Below, piece by piece: positions 6,751 through 53,339 of a stretch of DNA of 64,000 nucleotides. Origin of the DNA: the human T2T-CHM13v2.0 reference genome, Homo sapiens; assembly GCF_009914755.1 (NCBI RefSeq), contig NC_060941.1; one strand, written 5' to 3'. Below the pieces are notes generated by a model, which made no database searches, was not told the origin of the DNA, and saw nothing but the letters and a program-made list of their open reading frames with translations. The number at the start of each line of letters is the position of its first letter. Position 1 is the stretch's first letter. The translations under genes were made by a program, and so were the position numbers.

Positions 6751-9700
6751 CTACACATTTGCCAACCTTATTCTTCGGTCCCATCCTAACCATATCCACC
6801 TCCACCAGGGAACATATGGTAGCCACATATCTTATAGCCTGAATGGAGCCCTGGCACAGAGGAAAAAGAATGTTTGAAGAAAGAATTATTTGAATGTTTG
6901 AATGTTTGAAAAAGAATTATTACACCTCCACAACAGGCCCCATAGTATTTGTGTCCTTGCAAAACATATTATCTCTGTTCTGGGGTTCTAACATCCCTCT
7001 TCATGGTCAGAGAGATACATATTTGTCTTGAATCTGTGTCTTCAGAAGATCTTCCCAGTACATTGCTGTGTGAGTGTTGTGTCTGCAGCCCCAACTGCCT
7101 GCCCAAGGAAAAGGTGAGTACAATTGAGTCCCCATTCACTAGGGGCTCCTATTTAATCTCACAGCCTCTATATCCTAGGAAGTTGAATTAACCTGGAGGG
7201 AAGATTCTCCACCCACCTGGCATAGGTTGCAGATGGATTTTACACAATGGGAATTGGGGCAGGCAGGGTTGGAACATGGCCCAAAGTGTTGGGGGATCAC
7301 TCTCCTGTGACCTGACACAGGTTCTATGCTCTGTCTCACAGCCTGAGAGAGAGAAAGCAAATTTTAGTCCACTTTAGCCCTACTGCATTGTCATCAAAGG
7401 AGACTTCACTCAGCAACTTGACATTGGGAGGGTGGACGTCCTCTTCCTTTCAGCCCTCCCCACCCCCAGCATACAGCTACAGGCTGCCGGGCTATCCTCT
7501 CACAACTCTCAAGGTGGTTGGCGAGTTTAGGCAGCAACTGCCAGTTAATAGCAGAAAGAGAAGCTAGGAAGAGGGAAGTCAGGGGCCCAGTGTATGCATG
7601 TGTGTGGGTTGGAGAAGGGTGCAAAGGTGATAAGAGAAGAGAAGAGTGGCATAAGGGCTTATGTTTGGCACCGTTAAGACTTACTGTGAACCTGACATGC
7701 AGAGATGGAGGGCCTCAAGAGGGTCTTTCTCTTGGTGGGATGGTTCTCTGATCACCTGTCCACTCCATCAGTGAAGGACGGGTCCCCCACTTTAAATAGT
7801 GTGAGATGGCTGAACCCATGACACCTGACACTGAAGAAATGAGATGAATAGCACATAGAATTAGTGTCACCTATACTCACAGCCTGAGGGAGGAGGATAC
7901 TGCATGCCATGCAGTGACCCACAGAGGTTCCACTTGGGAGCAGGGTGAACCAGCAGAGGCTGTGGAAGGCAGGCTTTGCATTAGGATGGTGCAAGGGTAA
8001 TCGTGGTTTTTGCCATTAAAAGTACTCCTGCAGGAAGATGTGATTAGCTTTTTTTGTGGGCTGACAGGGACTTGAGACTCATAGGTTAAGAACTGGGTGG
8101 GTGCAGCTGATCTGATAATAGAGGAACTAGCCAGGTGGGGAGCCTCTCCCACTGGGTGGTGGAGGGGGGAGCACATTCAAAGAGCAGGAGAACTCAGGGT
8201 TAGACCTTTGGACCCTGTGAGAACTTGAAAGCACTTTAAGGCAGCTCTTGAAGTTTTAGGCCTTACAATACAAATGGACCAAATGCCTTTGCCTAGTCTC
8301 TTTCTGTGGGAATCCAGCTTTCCCTTGTTGTAGGGATCCCTTTGTTCATAGAAATTATAGGGCAGCTGGCAGATTTTCATGCCTAATAGCTGCCCATGGT
8401 ACACATTGAAGGCTGATTTGCTTCTAAACAATACTCCAACCAACACTCGTGTGGCAGGGCAATCATGAGTGCAGGGAGAGTTCACATGTGAGGACCTGGT
8501 AGGTGGGTAGTAGTGGATGAGGTCACAATGTGGTTGGAACTTGAACAGTATCCAGTTTCATTCCTAAAACAACCTTTTGAAATAGGTGCCTTCCTGGACC
8601 TGCCAAAAGGAACCTATGGTATTTGTGTCAACATGTGCCCAGGAAACAAATCCTGTCTAGGGGAAAGAGATGCCAAAGCAATGGCTGTGGTCATGTGTGC
8701 AAAGTTGTTCCTGAAACAAGTAAAAGCCAGCCCCTGAGATGCTCCCAGGGGAAAATGACACATTGGTCTTCCTTAGGATAACCACAGGGAAGCAGGAATT
8801 GTTTTGACTATTCCAGGACTTTTGGCCACCTTATCTGAACTCTTCTGTTGTCCTGGCTTCCCTGAACCATGCTTAGAAGCATGCTAAGCAGTTAAGAAGA
8901 GATAGCTTGATCCTGGACATAGCTCAGTTGTCAATACAGCTGTCCAACTTCCATGGACTTTTGGGCTTATTTCAGTCTGACAACAGGGTGGGTGGTTGGC
9001 GAGGAGAGAAAGAAAAGGGACCAGCAATCATGGGGCAGCTGCTATGTGTTAAGTGCCCAAATAACAAAAAGACTATGAAAAGGTCACCATCCTCAAGTGC
9101 TTTCAGTCTAGTTAGGGAGATAGAGCCATAAAACAAATTAAAAAGCACGTAACAAGGGCACAAAGATCTGAGGAAGCAGTGCAGAGCGAGCAACTTTACC
9201 AAGAAGAGTCTTCAGAGAGGAAATAATAATCTGAGCTAGATCTTGACAAAGAGCAGGAGTTAACAGAGAGAAGAGGACAAGCCAGGCAGAGGAAGCAACA
9301 GTCACATCACCCTGGATGAGCCAAAGCCATAGAGATTTAGAGCATGGAGGATGTGGCAAGAGACTCCCCATAGGGTAGTGGCAGGGAGTAATCTGCAAGA
9401 GGAGGATCAAGACAGAGTCTGAAGCACCTTAAACACCCTGCTTGGATTCGAATGGGGCACCATGGTAGGTGTTTAAGCAGGGAATGGCTCATGATAAATT
9501 CTGTATTTTATGTCAACAGCAGTGATGACCGTGCAGGCGGAAGCACAGACCTTTATAAGAGTAGCCAGGTCACTTCTTCAGAAGATTCTTCACCCATCCC
9601 CAAGCCCTGGTTGTTCTTCATCCTTGGAGTTACAAGCCTGGAAGAAATAGCCTTATTTTAATTATTCAATTTTGGAAATTTCCACAGGCTAACTTTTAAC

Positions 9701-16590: not shown

Positions 16591-16598
16591 TAATGCTG

Positions 16599-16965
16599 CT
16601 GTCTTAATCTATTTAGGCTGCTGTAATAAAATACCATAAACTGGGTCATTTATAAACAACAGAAATTTATTTCTCACAGTTCTGGAGGCTGGGAAGTCCA
16701 AGATCAAGGTGGCAGCAGATTCAGTATCTGGTGAGGGCCTGATTCCTCATTCATAGATGGCAGTTTCTTGCTGTGTCTTCATGTGGTGAAAGGATCAAAC
16801 AACCTCCCTAGGGTTTCTTTTATAAAGGCACTAATCCCATTCATGAGGTCTCTGCCCCTAATTCCTAATCACCTCCCAAAGGGCCCAGCTTGCAACACCA
16901 CTATCCTGGGGGTTAGGATTTCATCTTATGGATTTGGGAAGGACACAAACATTCACCTCATAGTA
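16599..16965. mobile_element. MLT1A-type MaLR LTR
   Basis: tgtcttaatctatttaggctgctgtaataaaataccat...ttctcacagttctggaggctgggaagtccaagatcaagg. Confidence 0.8.
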
Positions 16966-17027
16966 ACCAATCCCGGGGAATCACTGAAATTTCTGTTACC
17001 ATCAAGTTTGCACTTGCATCTGATTAG

Positions 17028-17598
17028 CTGTGCAGAAGAGATAACATGGCCGGCCTGAGAATATAGTCCTTAGAAAGGCCTGCTTGCAAAGTTGGCCCTT
17101 GGCTGACATCTGGGAGCTTGAATGTTAAACAGTTCTCTACACTGATACAAAATTTTCCCTAAATGACAAGAGTGCCTCACTGTGCCTAAACTTTTTGTGC
17201 AAACAGTATGCTTTATGCTGAATACATGTTTTACTTCTGGGAGTCTGGAATTTTGGCACATGCTGGGTAGAAGGAGTGCCTATACGACAGGCCTCCAGTA
17301 AAAATCTTCAACTCCTAGGCTCAGGCAAACTTTCCTGGTGAACAATATTTCACATGGGCTGTCACAACTCGATGCATAAGAAATTAAGTTATTACTGTGT
17401 GACTGTACAGGGAGGGGACTTTTGGAAGCTTACACCTAGTTTCCTCCAGACTTTGCCCATATACCTTTTCCCTTCGTGGATTTTGTTTTGTATCCTTCAC
17501 TGTAATAAATCAGAACCATGAATATGACTATATGCTGAGTCCTGTGAGTCCTCCTAGCAAAACTTTGAGCCTAAAAATGTCTTGGGAACCTTTAACAC
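17028..17598 (+). mobile_element. MER21-like LTR
   Basis: tccttagaaaggcctgcttgcaaagttggcccttggctg...gtaataaatc...tgctgagtcctgtgagtcctcctagc. Confidence 0.7.
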
Positions 17599-18109
17599 AG
17601 TAGGTATTTCATCCTGCTGCCTGTCTGCAGAAATATGAGGGCCAACAGTTTTCTAAAGATTTTGTCTTAGTCCCTCATAGTGTGAGCAGTAGTGCTTTTA
17701 ACAATACAATTCTTTTAAGAACCTCAAAGGTTTCCTGTGAAACTGGTTCAGATCTCCATGACCCAAAAGTCTCTAGCACAATTCTTTTGTGAACAGGTCT
17801 TTCTCTTCTTTGAGAGTTGCAGGCATCTGTTGGACAAGAACCCTAAAATTTTTAGGAGCCATTTTGTCTAGCTCAAAGTATCTACTAAGCACGACTTTCA
17901 ATCTTACAGAGCTCTTAACAGAGTGTCCTACAGCCATACCTTTTATTAGACTTTTACCACTGAGACTATATATTACTTTGAGTTTCCTTTAATGGCTTGA
18001 GAGACTACAGGTGAGAAATAATTTAATTTTCCCACTTAGAAATCCCCAGCTTTTCTATAATCTAATTTCTGCTTGAAAATGGAGCCACCTTTCTCTAACT
18101 CATTTATTT

Positions 18110-18465
18110 CTGTCTTAGTTCATTCTGGCTTTTATAACAAAATACCATAGCTTATAAATAACAGGAATTTATTTCTCACCATTCTGGAGAATGGAAAGTC
18201 CAAGATCAGGGTGTCAGCATGGCCAGGTTCTGGTGAAGGCCCTCCTCTGAGTTGCAGAATCCCAACTTGTTGCTGCAACCTCACATGGTAGAACTGGTGA
18301 ACTAGCTCCCTTGGGCCTATTTTATAAGGACACTAATTCCATTCATAAGGGCTGCATTATCATGATCTATTCACCTCCACAACCCCTCCATCATCTCCTA
18401 ATACAATCACATTGGTGATTTGGTTTCAACATATGAATTTGGGGGGAACACAAACATGCAATGGA
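18110..18465. mobile_element. MLT1A-type MaLR LTR
   Basis: tgtcttagttcattctggct...aaagtccaagatcagg...gaatttggggggaacacaaacat. Confidence 0.75.
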
Positions 18466-18759
18466 CATAGCATGTGGAATGATAGACAGTAGAGACTTGG
18501 GACAGTGGTGGAGGGTAGGGTAGGACAAGGTAGATGATGAGGAATTACTTAATGGGTACAATGTACATTATCCAGGTACCCTGACTTCACTACTACACAA
18601 TCTATGCATGTAACTAAATTACACTTGTACCCCATACATTCATACGAAAAAAGGAGAATAAGGCCAACCCAGCTCATTTTCTCCAGCCTAGGTGACAAGG
18701 GCAAAACTCTGTCTCAAAAAAAAAAAAAAAAAAAAAAAAAAAACAAGAAGAAGAAGAAA

Positions 18760-19450
18760 TCTTTGCCTATCCCAAGATCATGAAACTATTTCTACAATAT
18801 CTTCTAAAAGCTTTATTGTTTCTTCTTTCACATTAAGTCCATGATCCATTTGGAAGAGATTTCTGTGTGTGGTGTGGGGTAGGAGTCAAGGTTCCTTTTT
18901 GTTTACATGAATAAGCCAATCAAGCCAGCTACCTTTACTGAAAAAGCATTCTTTCCCTCTTTGAACTACAGCGGCTCCTTTGTCATAAATTATGAGATGG
19001 TGTGTTTTTGTTACACTGATCTATTTGGTATCTTGCACTGCTGTTCCATTTACTGCCACATTATAATAAATCCTGATAAATGGTAGCTTAAGTCCCTCAA
19101 CTTTGTTTAAGACTGTCTTGATTATTCTTGCCTTTTGGAATTTTCATATAAGTTTTAGAATCAGTTTATCAATTTTCATGAAAAATCCTTCTAAGATTTT
19201 GACTGAGATTGTATTAAATTTATTGTTGAATTTGGGGAAAACTGACAGCTTTATAATAATGAATCTTCTAATCCACAAACACGGCACATCCCTCCATTTA
19301 TTAAGGTACCTACAAATTTTTGTTTGTAATATCGTGTAATTTTCTGCACAAGATTTGTTAGATTTATCTCTAGGTAATTGATGGTTTTGACGATATCTTA
19401 AAGGGCATTTGAAAATGTTATTTTCTATATGTAATACTTGAAAGCTGTTA
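18760..19450 (-). mobile_element. Old L1 (L1M) ORF2 fragment
   Basis: ORF 19144..19476 YLNKWRDVPCLWIRRFIIIKLSVFPK...FFMKIDKLILK is L1 ORF2-like. Confidence 0.8.
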
Positions 19451-19472
19451 ATTGGGTCTCTCCTCTGGTCAG

Positions 19473-19588
19473 GCATCTGTGTGCACCAATGCAGAAAAGA
19501 CGGGGACTACAAGGAAGGAAAATGTTGCATCAGGAAGGGCTGCTGGCACATCTTTGTTCCCCCTCCCCAAAACCTCATCCCCAAGCAG
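19473..19588 (+). pseudogene. Decayed WAP (WFDC21/Wdnm1-like, 6-Cys) exon, unit 1
   Basis: tctctcctctggtcag| (G)ICVHQCRKDGDYKEGKCCIRKGCWHIF... |GTGAGT; Cys spacing C-x3-C-x5-(C>Y)-x5-C-x4-C-x3-(C). Confidence 0.7.
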
Positions 19589-20269
19589 GTGAGTCCTGAC
19601 TCTCCCCACCTGGCCTGACCGAGACTGATTAAAGATTTGGTGCTACCTGGATTTTCACAGTAGTGCGGTCACCCACAAATGTGACAGAAATGTCCCCAAA
19701 GGCCTGAGGGCTCCTTCTGCTCTCACCCTTCCTGAGGGAAGGGCTGATCCTAAGACCCATTACCCCCACATTTTCAAGTATGAGAATCCTGAAAAGAAAA
19801 ATCATTTCATATTTCCCAAGGAATAGATATTCATTATAGTGAAGTCAGATATATAGAACAAAGAGATGGTAAAACTTGCTCATAATCTCATTACCAGCAG
19901 ATAAATATAGTTACATGTTTTGTCACGTCCTTTCATACTTTGATCCATGGGGTGTGTGTGCAAAATAATCAAGGCATCACACTCTACATAATTTTGGACC
20001 TCTTCTTTTTTTTTTCACTCACCAATATACAGTAAACAGCTTTCCCTGTCAGTGGATGTATTTCTACAATTTCATTTTCCCCCCAAGGTTTCACATCATT
20101 CTCACCATGTAGATATACCATATTTTATTTACTAATTCTTGACCAATAGATATTTAGACTTCAAAAGATTCCTTAGAATGAAATCTTTCCATGCACAGTT
20201 GATTGTTTCATCAGGAAATATTCTTTGAAGTGTTTCTAGGTGAAAATGCATGCATTTTTTACATTTTAA

Positions 20270-20412
20270 TTTTATTTAATTTTTTAGAGATCCCTAAAAA
20301 ATTAGGAATCCCTGTTGCCTAGGCTGGTCTCAAATTCCTGGGCTGAAGCTATCCTCCCACCTCAGCCTCCTAAGTAGCTGGGATTGCAGACACATGCCAC
20401 TGTGCCTGGCCA
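20270..20412 (-). mobile_element. FLAM/Alu monomer
   Basis: ccctgttgcctaggctggtctcaaattcctgggct...gccactgtgcctggcc. Confidence 0.75.
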
Positions 20413-21025
20413 GCATGCACGCTTTTTAAACTCCAAAAATACATTGCCAAATTGCTGTTACGAGGGTACATTTTTTTATGCCAAAAAGTTTTGATCAACC
20501 TCAAAATACTGGCTATAGTTTAATTTTTCACTATTTGACAGTAGGTGTAATTTCATCTGAGTTTACAATTTTAAGTCACATACATTAAAAAAAAAAAAAA
20601 ACCTCAGTTACGTTTGTGAAATATTTACTTGTTTGGAGGAATGTTTCAGCAATCTTTTGTAATAAGTTGGAATCCCCCAGAGTGGGAAAAGGATGAATGA
20701 AACACATATTTAGCACCCGCTTTGTTTCAGATCTTTTCAAATACATTTTTTTTTAATCTTGAGAGCTTTTTATGATGTGTGGATTTATAGCACCCACATT
20801 TTACAGATGAGGAAACTGAGAAATAAACAAAATGTCTTTTTCTTTTGCTTACCTTACCATGATTCCTCTCCACTCTCTCCTTTAAGTCACTGGGCTTATA
20901 TTGCAAGTGGTGATCCCAGGAGGCCACTGTAGCTAATGGTGTCCCCCAGTTTGCAATAAAGATTTCTGTCATCTCCCTCTCCCGCTGGGTTCAGAAACAA
21001 AGCCTGGGATGGCGGCAGGCCCATT

Positions 21026-21039
21026 GCGCCATCTACTGG
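21026..21039 (-). promoter_or_regulatory. Candidate CTCF binding site
   Basis: CCAGTAGATGGCGC on the minus strand matches the CTCF core consensus CCASYAGRKGGCRS. Confidence 0.6.
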
Positions 21040-21619
21040 CAATCACTGTGCAGTGCATGACCTTCCCACTGCAGTACTGGCTGGAGCAGATGAGGTGGAA
21101 ATATCTGTAAATTTCACATCTGCATTTACTCTTCATAACAGCTTTCTGAAGTAAATATTGTATCCTTATTTCAAATGCATGGAAACTGGGTCTTTGAGAG
21201 ATGAAATGTGTCCCACATCAAGCAGTTGGTAAATGGCAAAGCTGATCTCTTTGCCACCAAAGCCAGAACACTTTTCAGCACAGCATGCTGCCTCCCCGAA
21301 TGAAGTAATCATGAGGAGCTGCTGTCCACATGCTTCTGCCTTTTCCTCCAAACCACTCAAACTATAAGATAACAGCAAAAGAAATACCCAGCGTCTTTGC
21401 ACAGAGCGGCCACAAATGCTTTCTGCTGTGGCAGCTGCTGACTCATCCACAGGACCGTTTCTTCCACCTCAGACCCATGCGTTCCTGCTCTCTGCCAAGT
21501 CCGAACTGGAGAAAACAAATTCTGTCCCAGTGGGGTTTCCCATCTTTGGCTGGCTGGCTGGACTTCCTCCACAACCACTCTCTCGCCTTCTAAGCAGGAG
21601 CTGGGTGAGACATGAGATC

Positions 21620-21690
21620 ATGGGGGCATCCGACAGCGACAGCCATTTCTGGGGCCGTCATCATAGTCCAAGCCCCACCGAGACTGGCAG
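21620..21690 (+). pseudogene. Decayed exon 1 of WFDC-like unit 2
   Basis: tcATGGGGGCATCCGAC...GAGACTGGCAG homologous to tcATGAGGGCATCTGAC...GAGATTTGGCAG at 26506; upstream 21430-21600 homologous to 26270-26475. Confidence 0.45.
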
Positions 21691-22484
21691 CAGTATAGCA
21701 TTGTGAGGGGGGCTGAAGTCAGATAGACTCGATTCAAACCCTGCACCCTCCTTTTCCTAGTTCTGTGGCTTTGTGCAAGTGAATCAAACTCCCAGAGCCT
21801 CTTTCATTCTAAAATGGAGACAATAGTTTCTACTTGTAGGGTTGTTCTGAGACTTGAATAAGGTTGTACAATCACCTAGCTCTTAGTGCTTATTTATTGA
21901 GTACATAGCAAGTGCTCGATAAATGGTAGTGTGAAGTTGGCACTAGGTATGTACCTTCTCTGAACCTCCCTTGGTCAGTAAGGAACATTAGCATCGTGTG
22001 GGGGTTAAGATCCTGAGGTCTGGAGTCAGACAGACATCCTTTGGATCTGGACTCTGCCACTTGCTAGCCATGGGACCATCTTGTGGCCTTGTGTCTCCTC
22101 TCTGTGGACCTCAAAACGAGTCTTTATTCAAAGCCCAGGGCCCTGCCTAATATTAAGGCTTTAGATACATATTTTCAAATTGCCTCATGAGGGCCCTTTT
22201 AAAACATCAGAAATGTTAAATTACTCATAGGATAGCTAAATTTGTAGTAATAAAGTATCTGCATACATGCCTAATGGATTCAGTAATGCCACTAAATAGG
22301 AGTTTGTGTTATTTACAGCAGTCTCTACTTATATTTGAAAAGAATAAAACATCACTTATTAATTTTACAGACAATGTGTGGGTTACATATGGACTTGTGA
22401 ATCTCATGCATTACCCGTGTTGTCCCCCAGATACATACAGTCACTGTGGGAACAAACACCACCCTGAGTACCTGCTGCTTGCTA

Positions 22485-22938
<454 letters not shown>

Positions 22939-23898
22939 CTACAGATAATAAGGGGCAGAGCCAAGATCCTGACCCTGATCTGTCTGCGTAGCATGAGAGA
23001 AATATCCACCGTGGACTGTATTTGAAAATATTCACAGATACTAGGTTAATGCTATATAAAGTATATTATACCTAACCTTTTATAACATATTTTTTCATTT
23101 AACAATAATTGTGAATAGATACTTCTATCAACCTACAAATCTACCTACTTTATCCTTTTAAAGGACTATGTCATACTCCATTAAATGAATTTACTATAAT
23201 CTATTTAACCAACATTCCTTTAGTGAACATTTTAATGGTTTGCAATTTTTTGTCCTTGCATATAATGCTGAAATGAACTGGATCATATGCAAGTATTTTT
23301 GTACACCTCTAGAAGTGATTTTTTAAAATTCCTAAGAGTGAGATGATAAAATTAGTCACAAACATTTACTAACACATATTACCAAATCAGGCAGCATAAT
23401 AAAAGATCATCAAATTTTTATTCATTCACTTAGCAAATACTTATGTCATGCTTGTGCTGTGCTAGGTACTGCTCCCAGAGCTTGACTCCTCATGACATCC
23501 TGAGATGAGAACTTTAATGATTCTGTTTTATACATAAGAAGACTGTGGCTCAGAGAGACAAAGTAACTTGGCAGAAGTTAGACAGAAAATAGCTGGTTTG
23601 GAAACCAGGGTCTGCAGCACCCAGGCACTTGATGACTACGTTGTCCTTCCTGATTTATTAAGGCTTTATTCCCAGAATTACTCAAATCCTAAAGAATAAA
23701 TCTTATTTGATGGGAGTATCAAATGAGATTTTAAGGGGGAAAATATTAACATTAACATTATATGTTTTAAAATAAGATTTTTTATTTTTCCAGAAAAAAA
23801 TCTTAAAAATTAAATCATTTGTTTCATTTTTTTAAAAGGAAACTATAAACCCAATATTTTAAGAAACGATTTCATTCACTCAACACTTTTGAGCTGAG

Positions 23899-23995
23899 TC
23901 TCTCCTCTCATCAGTTCTGTGTGAGCAGAAAAGAGGGAGGCTTAGGGGCTTAGGGGATTAGGGGTCATGGTCGCTGGGAAATGCAACAGAAACCT
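23899..23995 (+). pseudogene. Largely deleted WAP exon remnant, unit 2
   Basis: tctctcctctcatcag|ttctgtgtg...gcagaaaaga, then gaaatgcaacagaaacc, which is shared with unit 3 at about 29015. Confidence 0.45.
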
Positions 23996-26507
23996 GTCAG
24001 GGCTGCTAGAACCTAGAAGAGTTAGCCATAGTAAATCGGCTGGTGCATATCTTTACAGAACTTTTATTTTGTAAGTGTGTATGCAAACTAGCTACTACAT
24101 TACATTTTACATACATTAATAATCTCCCTTTATTTTTTTACCTAATGTATATTTTTCCATGACCATGAATGTATTTTTATAACTTTTTGTTTTAGGTTTT
24201 AAGGCATTTCATTGCTAAGTTGCATCTCCTAGATTTGGGAAAGAATCTAAAAAACACATATTTGGTGCATTCTGTGTGCTCTGCCCAGTCACACACATTA
24301 TTCTATTTAACCTTCTGATGACCTAGGTATCTTCACCACTCTTCTAGATTGTTGCTCCCAGCAGTCATGTGACTCGTCTAAGGCCATGTTGCTACAGGTG
24401 GCTTGCAATCCAGGTTGGCTGAACTTCCAACTACATTCTCTTTGCTGTGCACTGTCCAAAAGTAGGGAGAGTTTCCTGCCTCTGGAATTCTCTATGTACA
24501 GGTGCCACCAGTTGTTTTCTTTGTGCACAGAAGAAAGTAAAACCCAGAGGCCACCATTAGTGATGGAGATGCATTGTCAGGAGAGGACAGAAGATGGGTA
24601 GAAGTTGACAGAGCTCTCATTTCTCCCACATGGGCTTGTACCATATGCAAATGGTTTCATAAGCATCTGGTAACAGTGTGTTCAGCCACAAGAGGGAGAC
24701 CAAATTGGAGCTGGAGATCCTTCTTCTCATGCCTCACCGTACTTTTGACTTCCCGAAAAAGAGGATTCGAGTGGCTCATTTTGGCATCTTGCAGTATAGT
24801 GTATTTCCACTGGGCAGGGAGTCGCAGTCTCTCTTATGCTCAGGCTGGCCACAGCGGCTTTCCTGGATATGTCTTTGTCCTGGTTCAATCCTGGGGCGGG
24901 GGAGCAGTGTTGCCCGCACCTTCCTAACAGAGCCAGCCTCCCAAGTAGAGCAGCTGAAGAGGGAAAACAGTCACTGCGGGCTGCAAAACTCATTGTCTGG
25001 AGCAACATCTGGGGGCTGGGGCAGGTCCTCGGCCCACCATGGTGATGAAAAGTGCTCAAATCATCAAAGAGTAAAAATTCTACACCAAAACCCACACTTT
25101 CCACAATAGTCATGTGGGTTTCTCCTCCTAGCCTGAGGGCATTTCTTGGGTCCTCCTTTCTGTGCATGATTCTCCAGCTCCAGGACAGCCCATCTCCAGC
25201 ACACTCTGGACAGGTTATGCCTGATTCTGCCTGACATGCTCCAGGCTTAAGAAACTGGCTCCTGTGAGCCTGGGCTGCCACCCATCTCCCTGGCTCTGGG
25301 TTCCAACCCTGGCTTCCTGGGGTGCTTGTGGCATGGGATGGAGTTAATGGTCAGCCTGGGAGTTGGAACTTCCACATTGTGTTAGCCTTTAAAACATCAG
25401 TGTCAGCCAGGAACTCAGAAAAGATAAAGACCCCAGATTGCCAAAAGCCCCTTCTCTTAAAGGGATGAGTCAAAGGCTTTCTTCCTTTCCCACATCCCAG
25501 GCAGGATTCATCTCTACCCTATTCCCAGAATAAACAGAGTCCCATTAGGTTTTCATGCCTACAATTGTCCCCAGTTTGTACTAAAGAGTAGTTGGTTCCA
25601 GACAGGAAAACCATAGCCTCAGCTCCATAGAGGGTGAGAAATGTGTGTATAAACAGCCTGCATTCGAATGCAGAAAGTCATGGCAGGCTGCATGAAGACC
25701 ACCACTAGTTCAAATGATGCTTGTGTGAGAATTAGAGAAAGGCCCCCTTCCAGTAGACAGAGTCCCATGGGTAAACAGACAGCACCTTTATCCTATTTAG
25801 GAAAAGTGTCCCTCCCTCTAGGTGCAGGCAGTGCCAGGGTGGAGCACTTCAGAAATGACACTGGAGATGGATGATGGTCCCACTCATCCTGGCCACCAGA
25901 CATAGTTGTTCAGTGCACAACCTGGAAAATCATACGTGTCAGCCCTGGTTAGAGTGGATGAGGTGAAAGTATGGGGACTTCTTACACTTGTGCTTTCATT
26001 TCCTGTTACATCTTAGTTATAATGTTATTCTCATTGCACAGACATGGAAATTACGGCCCAGAAGGTGAAGTGATCTGTTACAAAATAAACGGCAAGGCTG
26101 GTCTCTTCAACTCAAATCCAGACCACTTTCCACCATGCCATAAATGCCTCCTTGCCTGAAGCACTTTTAAAGAGCCACCTTCTGCCCACGTCTGCATCCT
26201 TTAGTTTTCTCAAGGCACAAAACCTTTAAGAACCACCCACCCAGCATCTTTGCATATCGTGTGTCCTGGTATGGCAGCTGCTGACCACGCCCTGAGTCAT
26301 GCTCATGGCCAAGCTCCCCACTCGGGACCATTTCTGTCCGTGCAGACTCATCTTTTCCTGTTCTTTGCAAAGCCCAGCTAGAGCAAGCAAATTCTTCCCA
26401 ATGGGTTTTTCCCATCTCTGGTTGCTTGGCTGGCTGGGCTTCCTCTACAAACCCCCTTCCTTTCCCCTAAGCAGGGCCCGGTGTCCCCATCCTGCGGAGT
26501 TGAGGTC

Positions 26508-26604
26508 ATGAGGGCATCTGACCAGGAGTAGCTATTCCTGGTGCTATTGTCATTGTCCTGTTTCATGTGTGAACATGGCTGCTGGCTCTACAGAGATTTG
26601 GCAG
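26508..26604 (+). pseudogene. Decayed signal-peptide exon 1 of WFDC-like unit 3
   Basis: MRASDQE*LFLVLLSLSCFMCEHGCWLYRDLA(G)|GT: 32 codons + 1 nt, phase-1 donor compatible with the phase-1 WAP exon at 28837. Confidence 0.55.
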
Positions 26605-26992
26605 GTAGCAAGGACGTTTCTTTTCAAATCTTCCTTTGGAAGTCAGACTTGGTGAGGATCGTATGCCCACCTTTTCCTAGCTCTGTGGTGCCAGGCAAAG
26701 TCTCAGTTTCTGCAAATTGGGGTTAAGAATTCCTACCTCACAGTGGTCTTTTGATAAATAAATAAGATCTTAAGTGAAAATTATTCCACTAGAAATTGCA
26801 CAGTCACTTTGGTCTTCATCCTGGAGGTCCACTGACAAGCCTCATGCAAACCTGTGGCCCTGTTCATCTTAAGGTGTTTTTATTCATACTTTCAAATGGC
26901 CTCAGGAAGACCTTTTATAAAGTAAAAATGTTAGGCAGCCACATGATATCCATTGACCCAGTGAGGCTGTTTTACTGGATATGAGGGGTTTG

Positions 26993-27267
26993 ACCCAGCA
27001 CTTTGGGGGGCTGAGACAGGCGGATCACTTGAGGCCAGGAGCTGGAGACCCGCCTGGCCAACATGGTGAAACCCCATCTCTATTAAAAACACCAAAAAAA
27101 TTACCTGGGCATGGTGGCACATGCCTGTAATCCCAGCTACTTGGGAGACTGAGGCACAAGAATCGCTTGAACCCGGGAGTCAGAGGTTGCAGTGAGCCAA
27201 GCCGAGATGGCGCCACTGCACTCCAGCCTGGGCAACAGAGTGAGACTCTGTCTCAGGGGAAAAAAAA
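26993..27267 (+). mobile_element. Alu (5' truncated)
   Basis: cccagcactttggg...gagactctgtctc. Confidence 0.9.
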
Positions 27268-28836
27268 GGGTGGGGGGAGGGTTTGAAAAAATAGTAGCAT
27301 GTAGTTATGTTTCTACAATATTTGATATATATAAGGATTTACCAACCTCATGCATTAGCTGCTATCCCCTACAGCAGTTGCTGTAGGAAAAAAAATCAAG
27401 TTCTGAGCTCCTACTGTTTGCCAGGCATATTCTGAGATGATCACGTTGAAATCTCAGAGTTACCCTGCAGAGTAGTCAGGGTATCACTGCCTGACAGATG
27501 AAGAAGCTGAGGCTTCCAGCAGTTAAATGACTTACCCCAGGCCACATAGATAATGAGTGGGAGAGCCCAGGTCTGTCTGTGAGGTATAATGAAATTAGCA
27601 TAAACCCTCCACATTGGCGCCACTTGCATAAATTAACATATTCTCTCACAGAAAGTATTTTATTGGGCATAACATTTTATATGTTTTACCATTTAACATT
27701 AGTTATGGATCTTCCCACGTCACATAAATATGTCTCATTCTTTTTCGATAATGTGATTACTAATGAATGGATTTACTATCATTCATTTAATCAATACTCC
27801 TTTTGATGGCTATTTTAATTGTCTGTTTATTCGTTTTGCACAGATTGATGTAATAAACATGAATTTATAGGAATATTTTTGTCTGCCTGTGAAAATGTTT
27901 GCTGGACAATAAATTCCTAGGAGTAAAATAAGGTCAAAGATTATAAATACAGTATTTATTTTCATAAATATTGCCAAGTCCGCCACAAATGTTTAAATCA
28001 CTAATGGTTTCAGATTATTGTATTTAATGAGTAAACACTTTTATAGGGTTTACTTTTATAAACAATTTTATTTGCCAGATATTATTCTAAGTGCTTTACA
28101 AAATTAACTTTTTCAATTTTTAATATAACCCTGAGATGTATATTATGATTATCCCCATTCTACAGATAAGAACACTGAGAAGTTAATTAACTTACCACAT
28201 ATCTAGGAAATGACAAGGCTAGTTGCACAGCCAGGCAGTCTGGCTCCTGAGTCCACATTTTAGACAACACTATTCCTCCTGGTTCTTTTGAGGCATTACT
28301 ACTGGAACTATCCTAATACTCATAAATAAACATTTCTTTTGGGGAGGGTCAAATAAAATTTTAAACAGAAAAGTGTTTCACCAACTGTCAAGCTCATAAA
28401 GTTGTACGTTATACACTTTTTTCATGATGCCCACAGATAATTTATTAATGATATCATCTATTTTAAAAGACATATATAAAACTCAACCCTTAAGAAAGGA
28501 CTCCTATTAGTGTTCCCCACAGGCACCCTCCTCAGTCTTACACCTTTCCACCCCCTAAAACAAATCATTCAGCATATTTATTTCATACTGTAATATAGGA
28601 TATAGCTACTTTTTAGATTTTCTTATATTATTAACATTGATCATACAAACATGGAATAGAAATTCTTTACGTTTTATCTGGATTTAAGGTGCTACATAAT
28701 GGAATATATTTCTATCAAGCCATACACTTTGGAGATAATGAAATCAATTGTGTTCTAGCTTAAACATTATGGGAATTTCAGAACTGCAACATAACAGATA
28801 ATCCTCAGATGAAAACTAAATCTCTCCTCTGGTCAG

Positions 28837-28937
28837 GCTTCTGTGTGCATCAGTGAAGAGAAGACGGGGACTGTGGAAGGGAAAACAGTGAGTCAGGAAG
28901 GACTGTGGCCACATCTGTTCCCCGGACCCTCAGGTAG
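28837..28937 (+). pseudogene. Decayed WAP (WFDC21/Wdnm1-like) exon, unit 3
   Basis: Identical acceptor tctctcctctggtcag|; (G)FCVHQ*REDGDC..[net -1 nt]..*VRKDCGHICSPDPQ. Confidence 0.7.
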
Positions 28938-29539
28938 TTAAATCCTGACCTCCTCTACCCCAGACTGTCCTGGGGAATGGCCAACACTGGCCTTTCACAA
29001 CCGTGTGTTACTAGAAATGCAACAGAAACCCAGCTGAATCCCCAGGGTTTCCCTTCTGCCCTTCTCAATGGAAAGATCTGTCCCAGGACCATTTATTCCA
29101 ACATTTTCAATTATGAGAAATCTGGGAAGATAAAGTTATTTTCACATTTCTCAAGAAATACATATTTATTCATACTCATTACAGGAAAGTCAGAATCTAC
29201 AGAAAACCAAGAAGATTTTTAAAAATCCATGATACCACCATCAAAAGAGCCACACTTAGTATGTTGGTCCACAGGTTTCCTAGCACCCTTTTCTGTTGGT
29301 GTATGCACAAAATACACAATCACATTCTGTCTACATTTTACAGTTTGCCATTTTTTGATTAACACTATATATTGAACAATTTTTAAGACCTGCAACGTAT
29401 GTCGACAACATTATTTCAAAATAATATATTTACAAATAAACGCACACACAAACTGTCTGTCTTATATACAACATGTCTTACTTTCTAATTCTCCACTCTG
29501 GAAGATTTAGGTTTTTCTAACTTTTTCTTAATATACTCA

Positions 29540-29760
29540 CCAGGAGTCAGTAAACTTTTTTTATAAAAGGCCAAAGGGTAGATATTTTAAACTCTGCAGG
29601 CCATAGATTTCTGGTGCAACACTTAACTCTGCTGTTGCAGGGAAAGAAGCCATACACAATTTGTAAATGAATGGGCATGACTGTGTTCTGATAAACTTTA
29701 CAAAAACAGGTGGTGGACTAGATGCAGCCTGCTCCTCTGGACATGGTTTGCCAGCCCCTG
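29540..29760. mobile_element. MER58A-like hAT-Charlie element
   Basis: caggagtcagtaaactttt...aaaggccaaagggtagatatttt...tttgccagcccctg. Confidence 0.7.
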
Positions 29761-30199
29761 ACATATACCACTACAGAGGATGCTGTTAGAATGAAATCTC
29801 TTTACACATCTCTGATCATCTCCTTAGGACTAATTGCTGGACATGACATGATGGTAGCTGTGGGTCAAAGGGCATGCACGCTCTGGGATGTACATTGCCA
29901 GATTGCTCATGATCAGCCTTTCTCATGTCAAAATGTTTTGTGACCACCAGAAGGCTGGTTCTGCTTTTATTATCCATTGACTGAGGAATAGAAATGACAT
30001 GGCATGTATGCAGGATATTTAACTATCGTATAGATAATCCTTGTGCACAAGTGCATTCTATATTCTTTCCCAATAAGTCTACATCTGCCAGAGTTGAAAT
30101 AAAAGAAAACAAAACAAACCTATTTAGCACCTTCTGTGTAGCAGGTCCATTCGTGTATGTTGTATTTCATTCTCAGAATTCTTATGACCTAGGCATTTT

Positions 30200-31610
30200 A
30201 AAATTTTTTTTAAAAATAGTTGACAAGGATTGTATATATTTAATGCATACAATGTGATGATTTCATATATGTATATATTGTGTACTAATTATCACAATCA
30301 AATTTATTACATCCATTACCACCTATGCTGTACATTAAATCTCCAGAATTTGTTCATCTTATAACTGAAAGTTTACACCCTTTGATTAATAGCTTCCCAT
30401 TTTCCCCACCTCCAGCCCTTGGCAACCACCATTCTACTATCTGTTTTTATGAGTTTGACTCTCTTAGATCCCACATATAAGTGAGATCATACAAAACTTG
30501 TCTTTCTGTGTCTGGCTTATTTCACTTAGCGTAATGTCCTCCAGGTTTATCCAGGACAGGAGTTTCTTCTTTTGAATGGCTAAGAGTCCATTGTTTATAT
30601 ATATTTTATTTATCCATTCATCTGTTGCTGGACACTTGGGCTGTTTCCATATCTTGGGTATTGTGAATAGTGTTGTAATAAACATGGGGCGCAGATCTCT
30701 CTTCAAGGTTCTAACCTGATTGCTGAATGGTATGCTTAGTTCTGCTTCTAATTTTTTGAGGAACCTCCATACTGTTTTCTGTAAAGGTTATACCACTTTA
30801 CATTCCAACCAACAGTGTACAAGGGTTCTCTTTCCTCTATGCTTTCGCCAACACTTGTTATCTCTTGTCGTTTTTTTATAAGAGCCGTCCTATCCTATGA
30901 GGCAATATCTCACTGTGGTTTTGATTTGCATTTCTGTGATGATTAGTGGTGTTGAACACCTTTTCATATGCTGTCTGGCCATTTGTATATCTTCTTTGGG
31001 GAAAAAAGTCCATTGGGGTCCTTTGCCTATTTTTAATTGGGTTATTCATGTATTTATTAATTTTTGCTATTGAGTTGTGTGAATTCCTTATATTTTTTCA
31101 AATAACCCCTTATCAAATATATGGGTCGCAAATATTTTCTTCCATCCCGTAGGTTGCCTTTTCATTTTGTCATGGTTTCCTTTGCTGCGTAAAACCTTTT
31201 AAGATTGATGTAGTCCCATTTATTTATTTTCACTTTTGTTGCCTGTGCTTTGGTGTTACATCAAAAAAAAATTGCCAATTATGACCAATGTCGAGGAGAT
31301 TTTTCCCTATGTGTACTTCCAGGATTTACATGGTTTCAGATATTACATTTAAATCTTTAATCCGTTTTGAGCTAATTTTCTGTATATGATGTAAAACAAG
31401 TGTGCAATTTCATTCTTTTTCACGCACTTTCCCCAACACTATTCATTGAAGACAGTTTTCTTTCTACATTGTGCTTTTTTTTTTTTTTTACAGTACAGTG
31501 AAAGCAAGTCTATTAAGAAAGTAAAGGAATAAAAGAATCTACATTGCATATCCTTGATGGCCTTGTCAAAGATCTGTTGACCATATATGCACGGGGTTAT
31601 TTCTGGGTGA
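30200..31610 (-). mobile_element. L1MA-like LINE 3' end
   Basis: ORF 30464..30706 MFITTLFTIPKIWKQPKCPATDEWINKI...LEDITLSEISQTQKDK is the L1 ORF2 C-terminus; 3'UTR follows. Confidence 0.88.
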
Positions 31611-31769
31611 GCTTGGCATTTTTATCTACCTCATTCTACCGATGAGGAGGCCGAGTCTCAAAGAGTTCACAGACCTGCCTAAGGTCACTCAGCTAGAGGT
31701 GATACAACCAGGGTTTGAACTGAGATCTGCCAAGCTTCTGAGTTTATTCTTTTTCCCCCACACCAAGGA

Positions 31770-31885
31770 TCCTCAATTCTGCCTTACTGACATCAGGATC
31801 CGGTCAATTCTTTGTGATGGGGGCTGTCCTGCACCTGGCAGGATGTTTAGCAGCTTCTCTGGCCTCCACCCACTGGATGCCAGGG
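31770..31885. mobile_element. MER20 fragment
   Basis: aattctttgtgatgggggctgtcctgcac...aggatgtttagcagc...ctggcctccacccactggatgcca. Confidence 0.7.
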
Positions 31886-32978
31886 GAATGCAGAAGAGGC
31901 TTGTTCATTCTCCCATTTAATCCTCAGGACAATATCTGACATAAATGTTATGTCTTTTATTTTATAAATGAAGAAAATGAGACTCAGAAAGGTTTAAGTG
32001 AGTTACTTAAGAACACACAGACAGCAAGAGGTAGAACTGGAAACCGAACACAGGTGTCCACATGGGACAACAAAAAAGTTCACGTTCCATCTTCTTTTGA
32101 GTCTCTCATTTCAATAATTACCATTGTGTGGATATGAGCTGAAGTACAGGAAACCTGGGGCTGAACTCTCCTCCCATCAGGCCTAGGAGCCCCAGACCAG
32201 AACCCCAGCCCAAGGTCTCCCAGTCAGGCCCGCTGGCGTGAGCTGGCATCTACACTAGCATGGTTTCCCAAAGCTGCAGGGATGCCAGTCTCGCCGCTGA
32301 TGAAGGAAATGAAGGGCATTTGCTTCTCCTGCAGGCTCTCGGGATTTAACACAGATTCCTTTTCTTGCTGTCTTCTCCCATAGCACAAAACAGGGTGGTC
32401 AATCCCCCTCCCAGTGTCCCAAGGCTTTGTTGCGTGTTCTCTTTAATTTCTCCCACTCTTGCGGTGTAACCTACCCTCATCTCCCTGGCAACCTTTCTGC
32501 TGTATCCTCTCGACACCTGGATCACAAGAACACTTGTGAGACCCCTTAACAAGTTACATCCCAAATTATCATTCCCCTTTGTCCTCAGCCAGTGCTCAGG
32601 TCCAACTTGCTCTCCTGGGGTGACTTTCTTTCCTGCCCAATATGGTTTCATCATCTGTAAATTGGGGATAATTAAAGTCTTGATCCTGATATTTGACTCT
32701 CAAAGCAGAAGTAGCAAGCTCAGCCAAGTCACTTCAACAAGAGGAGACGTTCCTTGTGAACCAAAAGGACACTGGTCACAAGGGCCGCTCCTTCTTCTGT
32801 CAGGCCTCTCCAGCACGCCCTTGGCTCAGCCGAAGAAGAGACTCAGGCTGTGCTTCTGCACTGTTGGGATAACATAGGCCTCTTCCATGTGGTTCCACAC
32901 CAGGAACATGGGGACAATCAGACCTCTCCCAGTGTGGGCATAAGGATACAAGATCATGTCAATATTGACATTCATAAT

Positions 32979-33497: not shown

Positions 33498-33631
33498 GCA
33501 GTCTGTGAGATGTTTCATGTCCGAGGCAAACAGCACATTCAGATCCCCAAGCTCTACACCTCCAGTGTGACCAGGCACCTGCACCACTTCAGGCTCATGC
33601 AGGACTCACAGCCTTTGGACCTCAGCTAAAG
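33498..33631 (+). pseudogene. NOS2 pseudogene exon fragment (reductase FMN/FAD linker region)
   Basis: ttccag| [43 protein letters not shown] vs recalled NOS2 [44 protein letters not shown]; premature TAA and no GT donor. Confidence 0.9.
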
Positions 33632-37459: not shown

Positions 37460-37589
37460 TAAATTTCTTATGTGCCATGGGACTGCAAAACATCATTATT
37501 AGGGGCAGCTGGATGGAAGGTATAGGAGGACACTATAGTGCCTTTTCAATATTTCTGTCTAAAATCTAAAAGCATTTCAACAGGAAACA

Positions 37590-37595
37590 TTTATT
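37590..37595 (-). terminator. TBC1D3 polyadenylation signal AATAAA (3' end about 37570)
   Basis: TTTATT on + strand about 290 nt past the stop codon. Confidence 0.75.
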
Positions 37596-37886: not shown

Positions 37887-46922
<9,036 letters not shown>

Positions 46923-53158: not shown

Positions 53159-53339
53159 GATTTACCCAGCAAGATAAATATATTATTATGTCAATTTAAA
53201 TTATTCACCTTGAACCACCCAAAATTACCTTGCATACCTCACCCACCCAAGGGTCCCGTAGCACACTTTGGGAGCTGCAGACAGTAAACCTGGAGCTCCA
53301 TAGAGCATTCCATCTCTCCACCATCTGTGGGCTAACAGG

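What the first reader, a model, noticed from the sequence alone, without database searches (positions are those of the whole stretch)
19455..29900. Hidden decayed tandem array of at least three WFDC21/Wdnm1-like secreted-peptide genes
Seen: three homologous units with a period of about 4.5-5 kb. The acceptor tctctcctct(ggt/cat)cag recurs at about 19457, 23899 and 28821. Promoter/exon-1 blocks 21430-21690 and 26270-26604 are homologous, as are the intron blocks 19600-19900 and 28940-29260 and the 3' blocks (gtcccccagtttgcaataaaga at 20941 vs tgtccccagtttgtactaaaga at 25567). The repeated exon reads GICVHQCRKDGD(Y)KEGKCCIRKGC(W)HI in unit 1 and GFCVHQ*REDGDC...VRKDCGHICSP in unit 3. Established: this is WAP four-disulfide-core spacing, and rodents carry Wfdc17/Wfdc18/Wfdc21 next to Ccl3/Ccl4. 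Inference: these are fossils of a WFDC cluster lost in this lineage, invisible to the ORF track, and I do not know of any annotation for them.
Basis: partly seen in the sequence, partly recalled or inferred. Interest (0 to 1): 0.85.

Follow-up and report, generated by a model that had tools for sequence, protein, structure and literature searches.

The report
Dead WFDC21-like gene array beside CCL4
Between CCL4 and TBC1D3B lie the decayed, unannotated remains of four tandem genes for small WFDC21-like secreted peptides, and part of the array was later copied next to WFDC21P and alongside several TBC1D3 genes.

Summary
The acceptor-plus-exon block recurs at 19457, 23899 and 28821. Repeat-masked self-BLAST finds five collinear homologous blocks with a period of about 4.4-4.9 kb. 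None is a listed masked repeat.

A profile of 39 mammalian WFDC21 proteins matches units 1 and 3 without gaps across the six-cysteine domain. In units 0 and 3 the first exon has the same length and intron phase as in WFDC21.

Caveats:
- Pfam WAP does not hit the fragments.
- A genome-wide profile scan recovers only WFDC21P.
- Unit 2 and the 3' blocks are weak.
- I could not obtain WFDC17/18 sequences or other mammalian genomes.

New context:
- Window 21996-32878 (units 2-3) is duplicated about 8 kb from WFDC21P/HEATR6.
- From 26326 onward, unit 3 is copied beside several TBC1D3 genes; 8 copies were found on chr17.

Verdict: real unprocessed pseudogene fossils. This is a new member of a known kind, of moderate interest.

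The parts
7359..7513 (+). Unit 0 promoter remnant and exon 1. The former start codon now reads TTG at 7417-7419. It is followed by 32 codons plus a split Gly, with donor gt at 7514-7515.
   Evidence: The WFDC21P exon 1 and intron 1 start align to 7359-7639 (59% over 289 nt, E 2e-5). The alignment shows ATG in WFDC21P opposite TTG here.
8586..8719 (+). Unit 0 domain exon. The acceptor ag is at 8584-8585 and the donor gt at 8720-8721. All six Cys codons are kept, and one frameshift lies between the third and fourth Cys of the exon.
   Evidence: WFDC21-family HMM: the two frames score E 5.9e-4 and 0.048 among 8389 pieces. With X at the break the score is 37.5 bits, E 7.6e-10. It is single copy in the genome.
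19473..19588 (+). Unit 1 domain exon. It is open for 39 codons, with acceptor ag at 19471-19472 and donor gt at 19589-19590. Two Cys positions are replaced (Tyr, Phe) and one Gly by Trp.
   Evidence: Translation is. HMM 24.5 bits, E 8.3e-6. BLASTP against the WFDC21P exon ORF gives 12/30 identities, pairwise E 3e-5. No closer copy exists elsewhere in the genome.
19589..19900 (+). Unit 1 intron 2 block, homologous to the unit 3 intron.
   Evidence: 19748-19835 vs 29081-29170, 76%, E 3e-10.
20887..20975 (+). Possible unit 1 last exon. It follows an ag at 20885-20886, has a short in-frame tail and carries AATAAA at 20955-20960. This part is inferred.
   Evidence: The sequence is. The only 19-nt match, to 25569-25587 in unit 2, is reached by 7 of 500 shuffles. 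It coincides with the first exon, 20853-20971, of the antisense lncRNA LOC101927369.
20990..21295 (+). Inter-unit spacer, homologous to 25848-26151.
   Evidence: 61% over 321 nt, E 1e-11.
21452..21669 (+). Unit 2 promoter and exon 1 remnant. Relative to unit 3 it has a 1-nt deletion, and no gt donor stands at the aligned place.
   Evidence: Homology with 26325-26558. In a positive-control shuffle test, 0 of 300 shuffles reached the observed score.
23899..23943 (+). Unit 2 domain-exon vestige: the acceptor tract plus about 28 nt, followed by a short tandem run.
   Evidence: Local alignment within the zone expected from collinearity. Shuffles reached the score 1 of 500 times against unit 1 and 0 of 500 against unit 3.
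26325..26604 (+). Unit 3 promoter and exon 1. The ATG is at 26508, a TAG stands at codon 8, there are 32 codons plus a split Gly, and the donor gt is at 26605-26606.
   Evidence: The TAG is shared by the two TBC1D3-flank copies examined but reads CAG in the 17q23 copy.
28837..28933 (+). Unit 3 domain exon. It has two TGA stops at Cys positions and a net 1-nt deletion.
   Evidence: With X at the breaks the HMM gives 25.9 bits, E 3.1e-6. The first TGA and the shortened stretch also appear in all 3 other copies read: L004, L005 and the 17q23 copy.
28934..29270 (+). Unit 3 intron 2 block.
21996..32878 (+). Segment duplicated at chr17:60979845-60965346 (minus strand), about 8 kb upstream of WFDC21P. 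It holds units 2 and 3.
   Evidence: K2P distance is 0.053 for 21996-26586 and 0.072-0.078 for 26792-32878.
26326..31939 (+). Proximal edge and first part of the duplicated segment found beside several TBC1D3 genes. The edge lies in the unit 3 promoter.
   Evidence: the copies next to TBC1D3I and TBC1D3P2 start at 26326, with K2P about 0.03. In those copies only Alu matches lie upstream of the edge.

Best explanation
The stretch from about 7.4 kb to 30 kb of the window holds four head-to-tail, same-strand relics (units 0-3) of genes for small secreted peptides of the WFDC21 (Wdnm1-like) type.

**Original gene plan.** Each gene once had a first exon encoding a roughly 32-residue leader, a phase-1 intron of 1-2.5 kb, and a second exon encoding a truncated WAP domain with six or seven cysteine positions. 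Units 0 and 1 probably also had a short third exon.

**State now.** All four are dead as protein genes.
- **Unit 0:** lost start codon and one frameshift.
- **Unit 1:** lost cysteines and no detectable first exon.
- **Unit 2:** domain exon mostly deleted.
- **Unit 3:** three stop codons and a frameshift.

They are unprocessed pseudogenes left by an old tandem gene cluster, not transposons and not recent copies of WFDC21P.

**Inferred history.**
- The cluster was once continuous with WFDC21 and HEATR6.
- Primate rearrangements and segmental duplications of 17q12/17q23 split it.
- Units 2-3 were copied to both sides of the split.
- Unit 3 was then carried along in the segment duplicated with several TBC1D3 genes.

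**Present role.** The DNA is at most raw material for non-coding transcripts. An antisense lncRNA starts in unit 1's tail and runs across unit 0.
For: **Shown:**
- **Collinear homology:** blocks recur with a period of about 4.4-4.9 kb.
- **Not dispersed repeats:** the blocks are unmasked. Their only genomic copies lie on chr17. The unit 1 block has 8 other matches, all to unit-3-type exons. The unit 3 promoter has 7 other matches.
- **Profile specificity:** the WFDC21-family HMM gave 6 of 6 pieces at E<=1 inside WFDC21P or the proposed units, among 8389 pieces covering 142 kb. The reversed control gave 0 hits.
- **Framework:** alignments are gapless over the full Cys framework, with E 7.6e-10, 3.1e-6 and 3.9e-5.
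- **Leader exon:** it has the same length and intron phase in macaque WFDC21 and in units 0 and 3.
- **Unit 0 and WFDC21P:** the unit 0 first exon and promoter align at DNA level to WFDC21P exon 1.
- **Duplication near WFDC21P:** units 2-3 recur about 8 kb upstream of WFDC21P in the same orientation relative to it.
- **Gene neighbourhood:** CCL4 lies upstream of the array, and HEATR6 lies beyond WFDC21P.

**From papers (passages seen):**
- WFDC21P is the human Wdnm1-like pseudogene, and its orthologues lie upstream of HEATR6 (PMC4184305).
- 17q12 and 17q23 are TBC1D3-bearing duplication hubs. A paracentric inversion in the human/chimpanzee/gorilla ancestor has its breakpoints there (PMC2374708).

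**Recalled, not from a call:** the mouse gene order Ccl3-Ccl4-Wfdc17-Wfdc18-Wfdc21-Heatr6.
Against: - **Pfam:** PF00095 gives no hit at E<=10 for the unit 1 ORF or either unit 0 ORF. The genome scan with PF00095 lists no site in the window.
- **Genome-wide profile scan:** the 39-protein profile returns only WFDC21P at a significant level and does not list the units. The statistical support is therefore local, resting on a restricted search space plus structure and position.
- **Weak parts:** the unit 2 exon remnant and the 3' blocks rest on 44 and 19 nt.
- **Missing exons:** no first exon was found for unit 1. Shuffles reached the observed score 300 of 300 times with the unit 3 query and 5 of 300 with the unit 2 query. 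No third exon was found for units 0 or 3.
- **No intact orthologue:** none was retrieved for any unit. One search was blank. One search gave 40 proteins, all of WFDC21 type, and 4 candidates of unnamed source were left out.
- **No comparison material:** WFDC17/18 proteins and non-human genomes were not available, so orthology and the time of death are untested.
Confidence: 0.85

Rival explanations
1. The units are recent primate segmental-duplication copies of WFDC21P itself, scattered by the 17q12/17q23 duplication hubs, rather than relics of an old tandem cluster.
For: - Units 2-3 are indeed duplicated between 17q12 and 17q23.
- An orangutan intrachromosomal duplicate of the Wdnm1-like gene is reported (PMC4184305, passage).
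Against: - BLASTN of the 8-kb WFDC21P locus against the window gave only Alu matches at E<=1e-3.
- With looser settings, only the unit 0 exon 1 region aligns, at 59%.
- Units 1-3 are about 40% identical to WFDC21 at the peptide level.
- Known duplications here are 90-97% identical, so the units are far older than those duplications.
Confidence: 0.03
2. The blocks are fragments of an unrecognised interspersed repeat, or chance cysteine-rich reading frames.
For: - Pfam WAP does not hit them.
- The genome-wide profile scan does not list them.
- Other old repeat fragments in the area are unmasked, for example 10925-11116 vs 29700-29507.
Against: - All genomic matches are on chr17, inside known duplication blocks.
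- Unit 0 and unit 1 are single copy.
- The blocks are collinear in gene order: promoter, exon 1, intron, exon 2, intron.
- Splice signals and intron phase match WFDC21.
- The reversed-peptide control gave 0 hits.
Confidence: 0.03
3. At least one unit is still functional. This could be a peptide from the open unit 1 exon, or relic promoters and exons reused by non-coding RNAs in the manner proposed for WFDC21P (lnc-DC).
For: - The unit 1 domain exon is open for 39 codons with both splice signals.
- The RefSeq lncRNA LOC101927369 (minus strand) starts at 20971, inside unit 1's putative last exon. Its exon 7685-9637 covers the unit 0 domain exon antisense.
- WFDC21P is transcribed and has been assigned an RNA function (PMC4184305).
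Against: - Unit 1 has lost two framework cysteines and has no detectable first exon.
- The lncRNA is a Gnomon model on the opposite strand.
- No expression data were available here.
Confidence: 0.07

Closest known systems
WFDC21P (lnc-DC; human Wdnm1-like pseudogene), chr17:60952521-60957422 in T2T
   Same: - Same peptide framework: Gly, then Cys spacing 3-5-5-4-3.
- Same three-exon plan with a phase-1 intron before the domain exon.
- Same leader length.
- Also a pseudogene.
- Copies of units 2-3 lie about 8 kb upstream of it on the same strand.
   Different: - WFDC21P passes the Pfam WAP cut-off (29.5 bits), and the units do not.
- WFDC21P died only in Homo, by one frameshift (PMC4184305). 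The units carry several lesions, and those of the unit 3 domain exon predate duplications with K2P 0.07.
- Units 1/3 keep a paired-Cys (CC) position that WFDC21 lacks.
- Units 0 and 1 read on past the last Cys into a donor site instead of stopping.
Rodent Wfdc17 (AMWAP) and Wfdc18 (Expi/Wdnm1)
   Same: By recall, these small WAP-type secreted-peptide genes lie between Ccl4 and Wfdc21/Heatr6 on mouse chromosome 11. That is the position the human relics occupy relative to CCL4.
   Different: - No sequence comparison was possible, because neither protein could be retrieved with the capped searches.
- The mouse gene order is recalled. Only the Wdnm1-like position on chr11 upstream of Heatr6 comes from a paper.
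- Orthology is therefore a hypothesis.
Segmental duplications holding TBC1D3 at 17q12/17q23 (DUPA/DUPB blocks of Cardone et al. 2008, PMC2374708)
   Same: Unit 3, from 26326 onward, is part of the segment repeated next to TBC1D3B/I/H/F, TBC1D3E, TBC1D3 and TBC1D3P2.
   Different: - The passages I read from that paper do not mention a WFDC relic inside the blocks.
- Units 0 and 1 lie outside the duplicated segment.
Chromosome 20q13 WFDC cluster (SLPI, PI3, WFDC2-13)
   Same: A tandem cluster of small WAP-domain genes, recovered by the PF00095 genome scan.
   Different: Those are intact genes with full eight-Cys domains on another chromosome. The relics here are of the truncated WFDC21 type and are dead.

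Membership tests
WAP four-disulfide core domain (Pfam PF00095) | Match to the PF00095 model at or above its 20.8-bit cut-off | tested here: not met
   There were 0 families at E<=10 for the unit 1 ORF and for both unit 0 ORFs. No site in the window appears among the 33 genome matches. Positive controls pass: WFDC21P ORF 29.5 bits, macaque WFDC21 31.9 bits, mouse WFDC21 25.5 bits. The unit 3 pieces are under 20 residues and were not submitted.
WAP four-disulfide core domain (Pfam PF00095) | Eight cysteines forming four disulfides | tested here: not met
   Only the last six (unit 0) or seven (units 1/3) Cys positions are encoded in the domain exon. The exon starts at the Gly just before the second canonical Cys, as in WFDC21, which matches model positions 10-40 only.
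WFDC21 / Wdnm1-like subfamily | Gly-x-Cys start and Cys spacing 3-5-5-4-3, aligned without gaps to a family profile | tested here: met
   Profile of 39 proteins. Unit 0 scores 37.5 bits (E 7.6e-10), unit 3 scores 25.9 bits (E 3.1e-6) and unit 1 scores 22.4-24.5 bits (E 4e-5 to 8e-6), among about 8390 pieces. Several Cys codons are mutated: unit 1 has Tyr and Phe, and unit 3 has two TGA and one Gln.
WFDC21 / Wdnm1-like subfamily | Significant match when the whole genome is the search space | tested here: inconclusive
   The genome scan with the 39-protein alignment lists WFDC21P (E 2.4e-13) and two chance-level sites. The units are not among the 63 first-look candidates scored. By bit score, unit 1 alone would be near E 0.1.
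WFDC21 / Wdnm1-like subfamily | Gene plan: leader exon of 32 codons plus a split Gly, a phase-1 intron, and a domain exon beginning at that Gly | tested here: met
   The comparison uses macaque WFDC21 and the WFDC21P exon borders. Unit 0 spans 7417-7513 with donor gt. Unit 3 spans 26508-26604 with donor gt. Acceptors stand directly before the Gly codon in units 1 and 3. No leader exon was found for unit 1.
WFDC21 / Wdnm1-like subfamily (orthologue of WFDC21 proper) | Position directly upstream of HEATR6 | tested here: not met
   The window units lie between CCL4 and TBC1D3B. WFDC21P holds the HEATR6 position. The units are paralogues. Only duplicated copies of units 2-3 lie near HEATR6.
Orthologues of rodent Wfdc17 / Wfdc18 | Closest sequence relationship to WFDC17 or WFDC18, and shared position next to Ccl4 | not testable with these tools
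   No WFDC17/18 sequence was retrieved. The Atlas gave cluster names only. No mammalian genomes are on hand. The human-side position is seen. The mouse side is recalled.
Segmental duplication holding TBC1D3 genes | High-identity copies flanking several TBC1D3 genes | tested here: met
   This applies to unit 3 only. Eight chr17 copies were found, counting the window's own. Six of them lie 8-10 kb from a TBC1D3 gene or pseudogene. K2P is about 0.03 for the two copies examined. The counts are lower bounds, by the tool's own statement.
Interspersed repeat (transposon-derived) | Masked as repeat, with many dispersed copies | tested here: not met
   The blocks lie outside all listed masked stretches of 100 nt or more. 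All copies are on chr17 in duplication blocks. The track carries no family names and omits stretches shorter than 100 nt.

The most novel reading that the evidence does not exclude
The four relics and WFDC21P are the two halves of a single ancestral cluster, CCL4-(unit 0-3)-WFDC21-HEATR6. Primate 17q rearrangements broke the cluster inside units 2-3.
- The junction segment was left duplicated on both sides.
- The edge of the segment duplicated with TBC1D3 genes fell in the promoter of dead unit 3, so the copies found beside TBC1D3 genes carry a WFDC fossil.
- The relic promoters may feed the local lncRNAs, as proposed for lnc-DC.
Probability: 0.5. Interest if true: 0.5.

Novelty: new member of a known kind. 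Interest (0 to 1): 0.4.

Why it matters
- **Missing human counterparts.** The finding suggests what became of the human counterparts of the rodent WAP-type genes next to Ccl4, some of which are widely used as mouse myeloid markers. They appear to exist only as fossils, so mouse results on them may have no direct human gene counterpart.
- **Markers for 17q history.** The relics give fixed, datable markers inside one of the most rearranged and copy-variable parts of chromosome 17. They tie the CCL4 side at 17q12 to the WFDC21P/HEATR6 side at 17q23.
- **Origin of part of the duplicated sequence.** At least part of the segment copied beside several TBC1D3 genes is a piece of an old WFDC cluster.
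- **Overall weight.** This is an annotation and evolutionary-history result, not a new kind of biology.

Tried and rejected
**Searches that gave nothing or too little**
- **Word-index protein search with unit 1**: no candidate shared three 5-residue words. This is no evidence either way for distant relatives.
- **Pfam and PDB sequence searches with the unit 1 ORF** and **Pfam with the unit 0 ORFs**: no hits.
- **BLASTN of the WFDC21P locus against the window**: only Alu matches, about 110 rows. I repeated it with masking and looser scoring.
- **First exon for unit 1 in 15000-19400**: not found.
- **Third exons for units 0 and 3**: not found. Shuffles reached the observed score 476 of 500 and 464 of 500 times.
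- **DNA-level homology between the unit 0 surroundings and units 1-3**: none. Only old inverted fragments turned up.
- **More relics between CCL4 and the window start, or between the 17q23 copy and WFDC21P**: none at E<=1.
- **Atlas search with the new peptide:** not possible. With mouse WFDC21 it returned cluster names only, with scores of 0.88 or below, which are leads and not evidence.

**Literature**
- (search listings) found no paper linking WFDC relics to CCL4 or TBC1D3, and none naming a human WFDC17 or WFDC18 pseudogene. The library lacks most subscription journals, so this is not proof that nothing is in print.
- Passages (not whole texts) were read in PMC4184305, PMC10859862, PMC11933345, PMC2374708 and PMC4417279.
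- Wu and Smas 2008 was not held.
- I opened no supplementary files. The additional data files of PMC2374708 (BAC maps of the breakpoints) may bear on the rearrangement reading.

**Rejected explanations**
- Transposon origin.
- Chance similarity.
- Recent copies of WFDC21P.

The reasons are given under the rival explanations.

**Dropped row**
- P0040 (101 aa, partial, unnamed product) was left out of the HMM and of alignment A5. That leaves 39 of the 40 proteins.

Full report
**Setting.** The window is chr17:37076001-37140000 of T2T-CHM13. CCL4 lies about 22 kb before its start and TBC1D3B lies at 37575-48508. The finding covers 19455-29900. RefSeq annotates only the minus-strand lncRNA LOC101927369 there, and WFDC21P (chr17:60.95 Mb) is the only WFDC entry on chromosome 17.

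**Observation.**
- **Acceptor motif:** the polypyrimidine-plus-cag motif, with the start of the exon behind it, recurs at 19457, 23899 and 28821. Identity to the first copy is 62% for the second and 90% for the third.
- **Unit 1 exon:** 19472-19588 reads GICVHQCRKDGDYKEGKCCIRKGCWHIFVPPPQNLIPKQ and is followed by gt.
- **Unit 3 exon:** it has a TGA at the second Cys of the exon, a net 1-nt deletion, and a second TGA at another Cys position. It ends in a well-kept C-G-H-I-C stretch in the shifted frame.
- **Collinear blocks:** self-BLAST after masking the listed repeats gives five collinear plus-strand pairs. They cover exon 2 (80%, E 6e-19), intron 2 (76%), promoter/exon 1 (75%, E 1e-14) and two intron 1 blocks. 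A looser search adds the inter-unit spacer 20990-21295 vs 25848-26151 (E 1e-11).
- **Period and masking:** the offsets are 4.4-4.9 kb per unit. None of the blocks lies in a listed masked repeat.
- **Weaker parts:** unit 2's domain exon survives as about 44 nt. Shuffles reached the observed score 1 of 500 and 0 of 500 times.

**What the units are: sequence evidence.**
- **General models fail:** Pfam WAP does not hit the unit 1 ORF. The genome scan with PF00095 lists WFDC21P exon 2 (28.3 bits) but nothing in the window.
- **Building a family profile:** I retrieved macaque WFDC21 with the WFDC21P exon ORF. An alignment query then returned 40 WFDC21-type proteins from monotremes to primates.
- **Profile result:** an HMM of 39 of them was run against 8389 six-frame pieces, drawn from the window, the 30 kb upstream of it, and 48 kb around WFDC21P. 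It gave six pieces at E<=1:

| Piece | E-value |
|---|---|
| WFDC21P exon 2 | 1e-18 |
| Unit 1 | 8e-6 |
| A new site at 8581-8778, first frame | 6e-4 |
| WFDC21P exon 1 | 0.013 |
| The same new site (8492-8734), second frame | 0.048 |
| The tail of unit 3 | 0.2 |

- **Control:** reversed peptides gave no hit.
- **With X at each break:**

| Unit | Bits | E-value |
|---|---|---|
| Unit 0 (the new site) | 37.5 | 7.6e-10 |
| Unit 3 | 25.9 | 3.1e-6 |
| Unit 1 | 22.4 | 3.9e-5 |

- **Framework:** all three alignments are gapless across the framework Gly-x-Cys, 3, 5, 5, 4, 3.
- **Limit:** a genome-wide scan with the same alignment recovers only WFDC21P. The support is local and leans on structure and position.

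**What the units are: gene structure.**
- **Reference plan:** macaque WFDC21 has 32 leader codons before the Gly that opens the domain. In WFDC21P that Gly codon is split by a phase-1 intron.
- **Unit 3:** ATG at 26508, then 32 codons, then G|gt.
- **Unit 0:** TTG in place of ATG at 7417, then 32 codons, then G|gt. Its first exon and promoter align to WFDC21P exon 1 at DNA level (59% over 289 nt, E 2e-5).
- **Acceptors:** units 1 and 3 have the acceptor directly before the Gly codon.
- **Summary:** the four units are unprocessed relics of WFDC21-type genes. Unit 0 is closest to WFDC21. Units 1-3 form a second type that keeps a paired-Cys position.

**Lesions.**
- **Unit 0:** start codon lost and one frameshift in the domain exon.
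- **Unit 1:** two framework Cys replaced, and no first exon found.
- **Unit 2:** a 1-nt deletion in exon 1, no donor at the aligned place, and the domain exon mostly deleted.
- **Unit 3:** TAG in exon 1, two TGA and a frameshift in exon 2.

**Wider context: where the copies lie.**
- Unit 1 and unit 0 are single copy.
- Unit 3 occurs at least 8 times on chr17. Copies lie next to TBC1D3B/I/H/F, TBC1D3E, TBC1D3 and TBC1D3P2, and one lies at 60.97 Mb.
- The TBC1D3-linked copies start at window 26326, inside the unit 3 promoter, with K2P about 0.03.

**Wider context: the copy next to WFDC21P.**
- Separately, window 21996-32878 (units 2-3) is duplicated on the minus strand at 60979845-60965346.
- That copy lies about 8 kb upstream of WFDC21P, which is followed by HEATR6. 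K2P is 0.053 and 0.072-0.078.
- The exon 2 lesions of unit 3 are shared by all 3 other copies read, so they predate these duplications.
- The exon 1 TAG is absent from the 17q23 copy.

**Inference on history.**
- On one side the order is CCL4, units 0-3. On the other it is units 2'-3', WFDC21P, HEATR6, in the same relative orientation.
- This is what a single old cluster, split within units 2-3, would leave.
- It fits the mouse order Ccl4-Wfdc17-Wfdc18-Wfdc21-Heatr6. That order is recalled. Only the Wdnm1-like position upstream of Heatr6 comes from PMC4184305.
- It also fits the description of 17q12 and 17q23 as duplication hubs with TBC1D3 copies at inversion breakpoints (PMC2374708, passages).
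- With recalled neutral rates of about 1-1.5e-9 per site per year, K2P 0.03-0.078 suggests duplications roughly 10-35 million years ago.
- The 20-40% divergence of the few alignable blocks between tandem units points to a far older tandem duplication.
- These dates are rough inferences.

**Known or new.**
- Seven searches found no paper describing these relics or a human WFDC17/18 pseudogene.
- RefSeq has no model for them.
- The kind of object, decayed tandem pseudogenes, is ordinary.
- The link to WFDC21P and to the sequence duplicated with TBC1D3 genes gives it some value.

**Verdict.** The finding is a new member of a known kind, and I score interest at 0.4.

Noticed in passing
It is the best preserved of the four, with all six Cys codons kept, one frameshift, and the start codon changed to TTG. 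It sits antisense within and next to exons of the lncRNA LOC101927369.
   Followed up: yes
window 26326 onward; chr17:37.19, 37.31, 37.41, 38.93, 39.03 and 63.12 Mb: The proximal edge of the segment repeated beside several TBC1D3 genes falls in the promoter of unit 3. In the two other copies read, only Alu matches lie upstream of the edge.
   Followed up: partly
window 48589-56519 vs chr17:60996316-60987468 (minus): A second block of the window, upstream of TBC1D3B and including LOC128966682 and the start of LOC128966684, is also duplicated at 17q23 at 84-93% identity. No TBC1D3 gene is annotated within 30 kb of the 17q23 copy of unit 3.
   Followed up: no
window 33520-33775 and 34292-34547: An inverted repeat of 256 nt at 95% identity, with arms about 520 nt apart, lies inside the duplicated segment.
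   Followed up: no
window 16599-16955 and 18110-18460: Two direct copies (66-82%) of what looks like an old interspersed repeat, partly masked. They lie where unit 1's first exon would be expected, so insertions may have displaced or destroyed it.
   Followed up: no
window 20853-20971 (-): The first exon of the lncRNA LOC101927369 coincides with unit 1's putative last exon and polyadenylation-signal block. The conserved inter-unit spacer 20990-21295 lies just upstream of that transcription start.
   Followed up: no
window 26587-26805 vs L006 (17q23 copy): The 17q23 copy of unit 3 lacks about 220 nt, including the exon 1 donor. It reads CAG where the 17q12 copies have the exon 1 TAG.
   Followed up: partly
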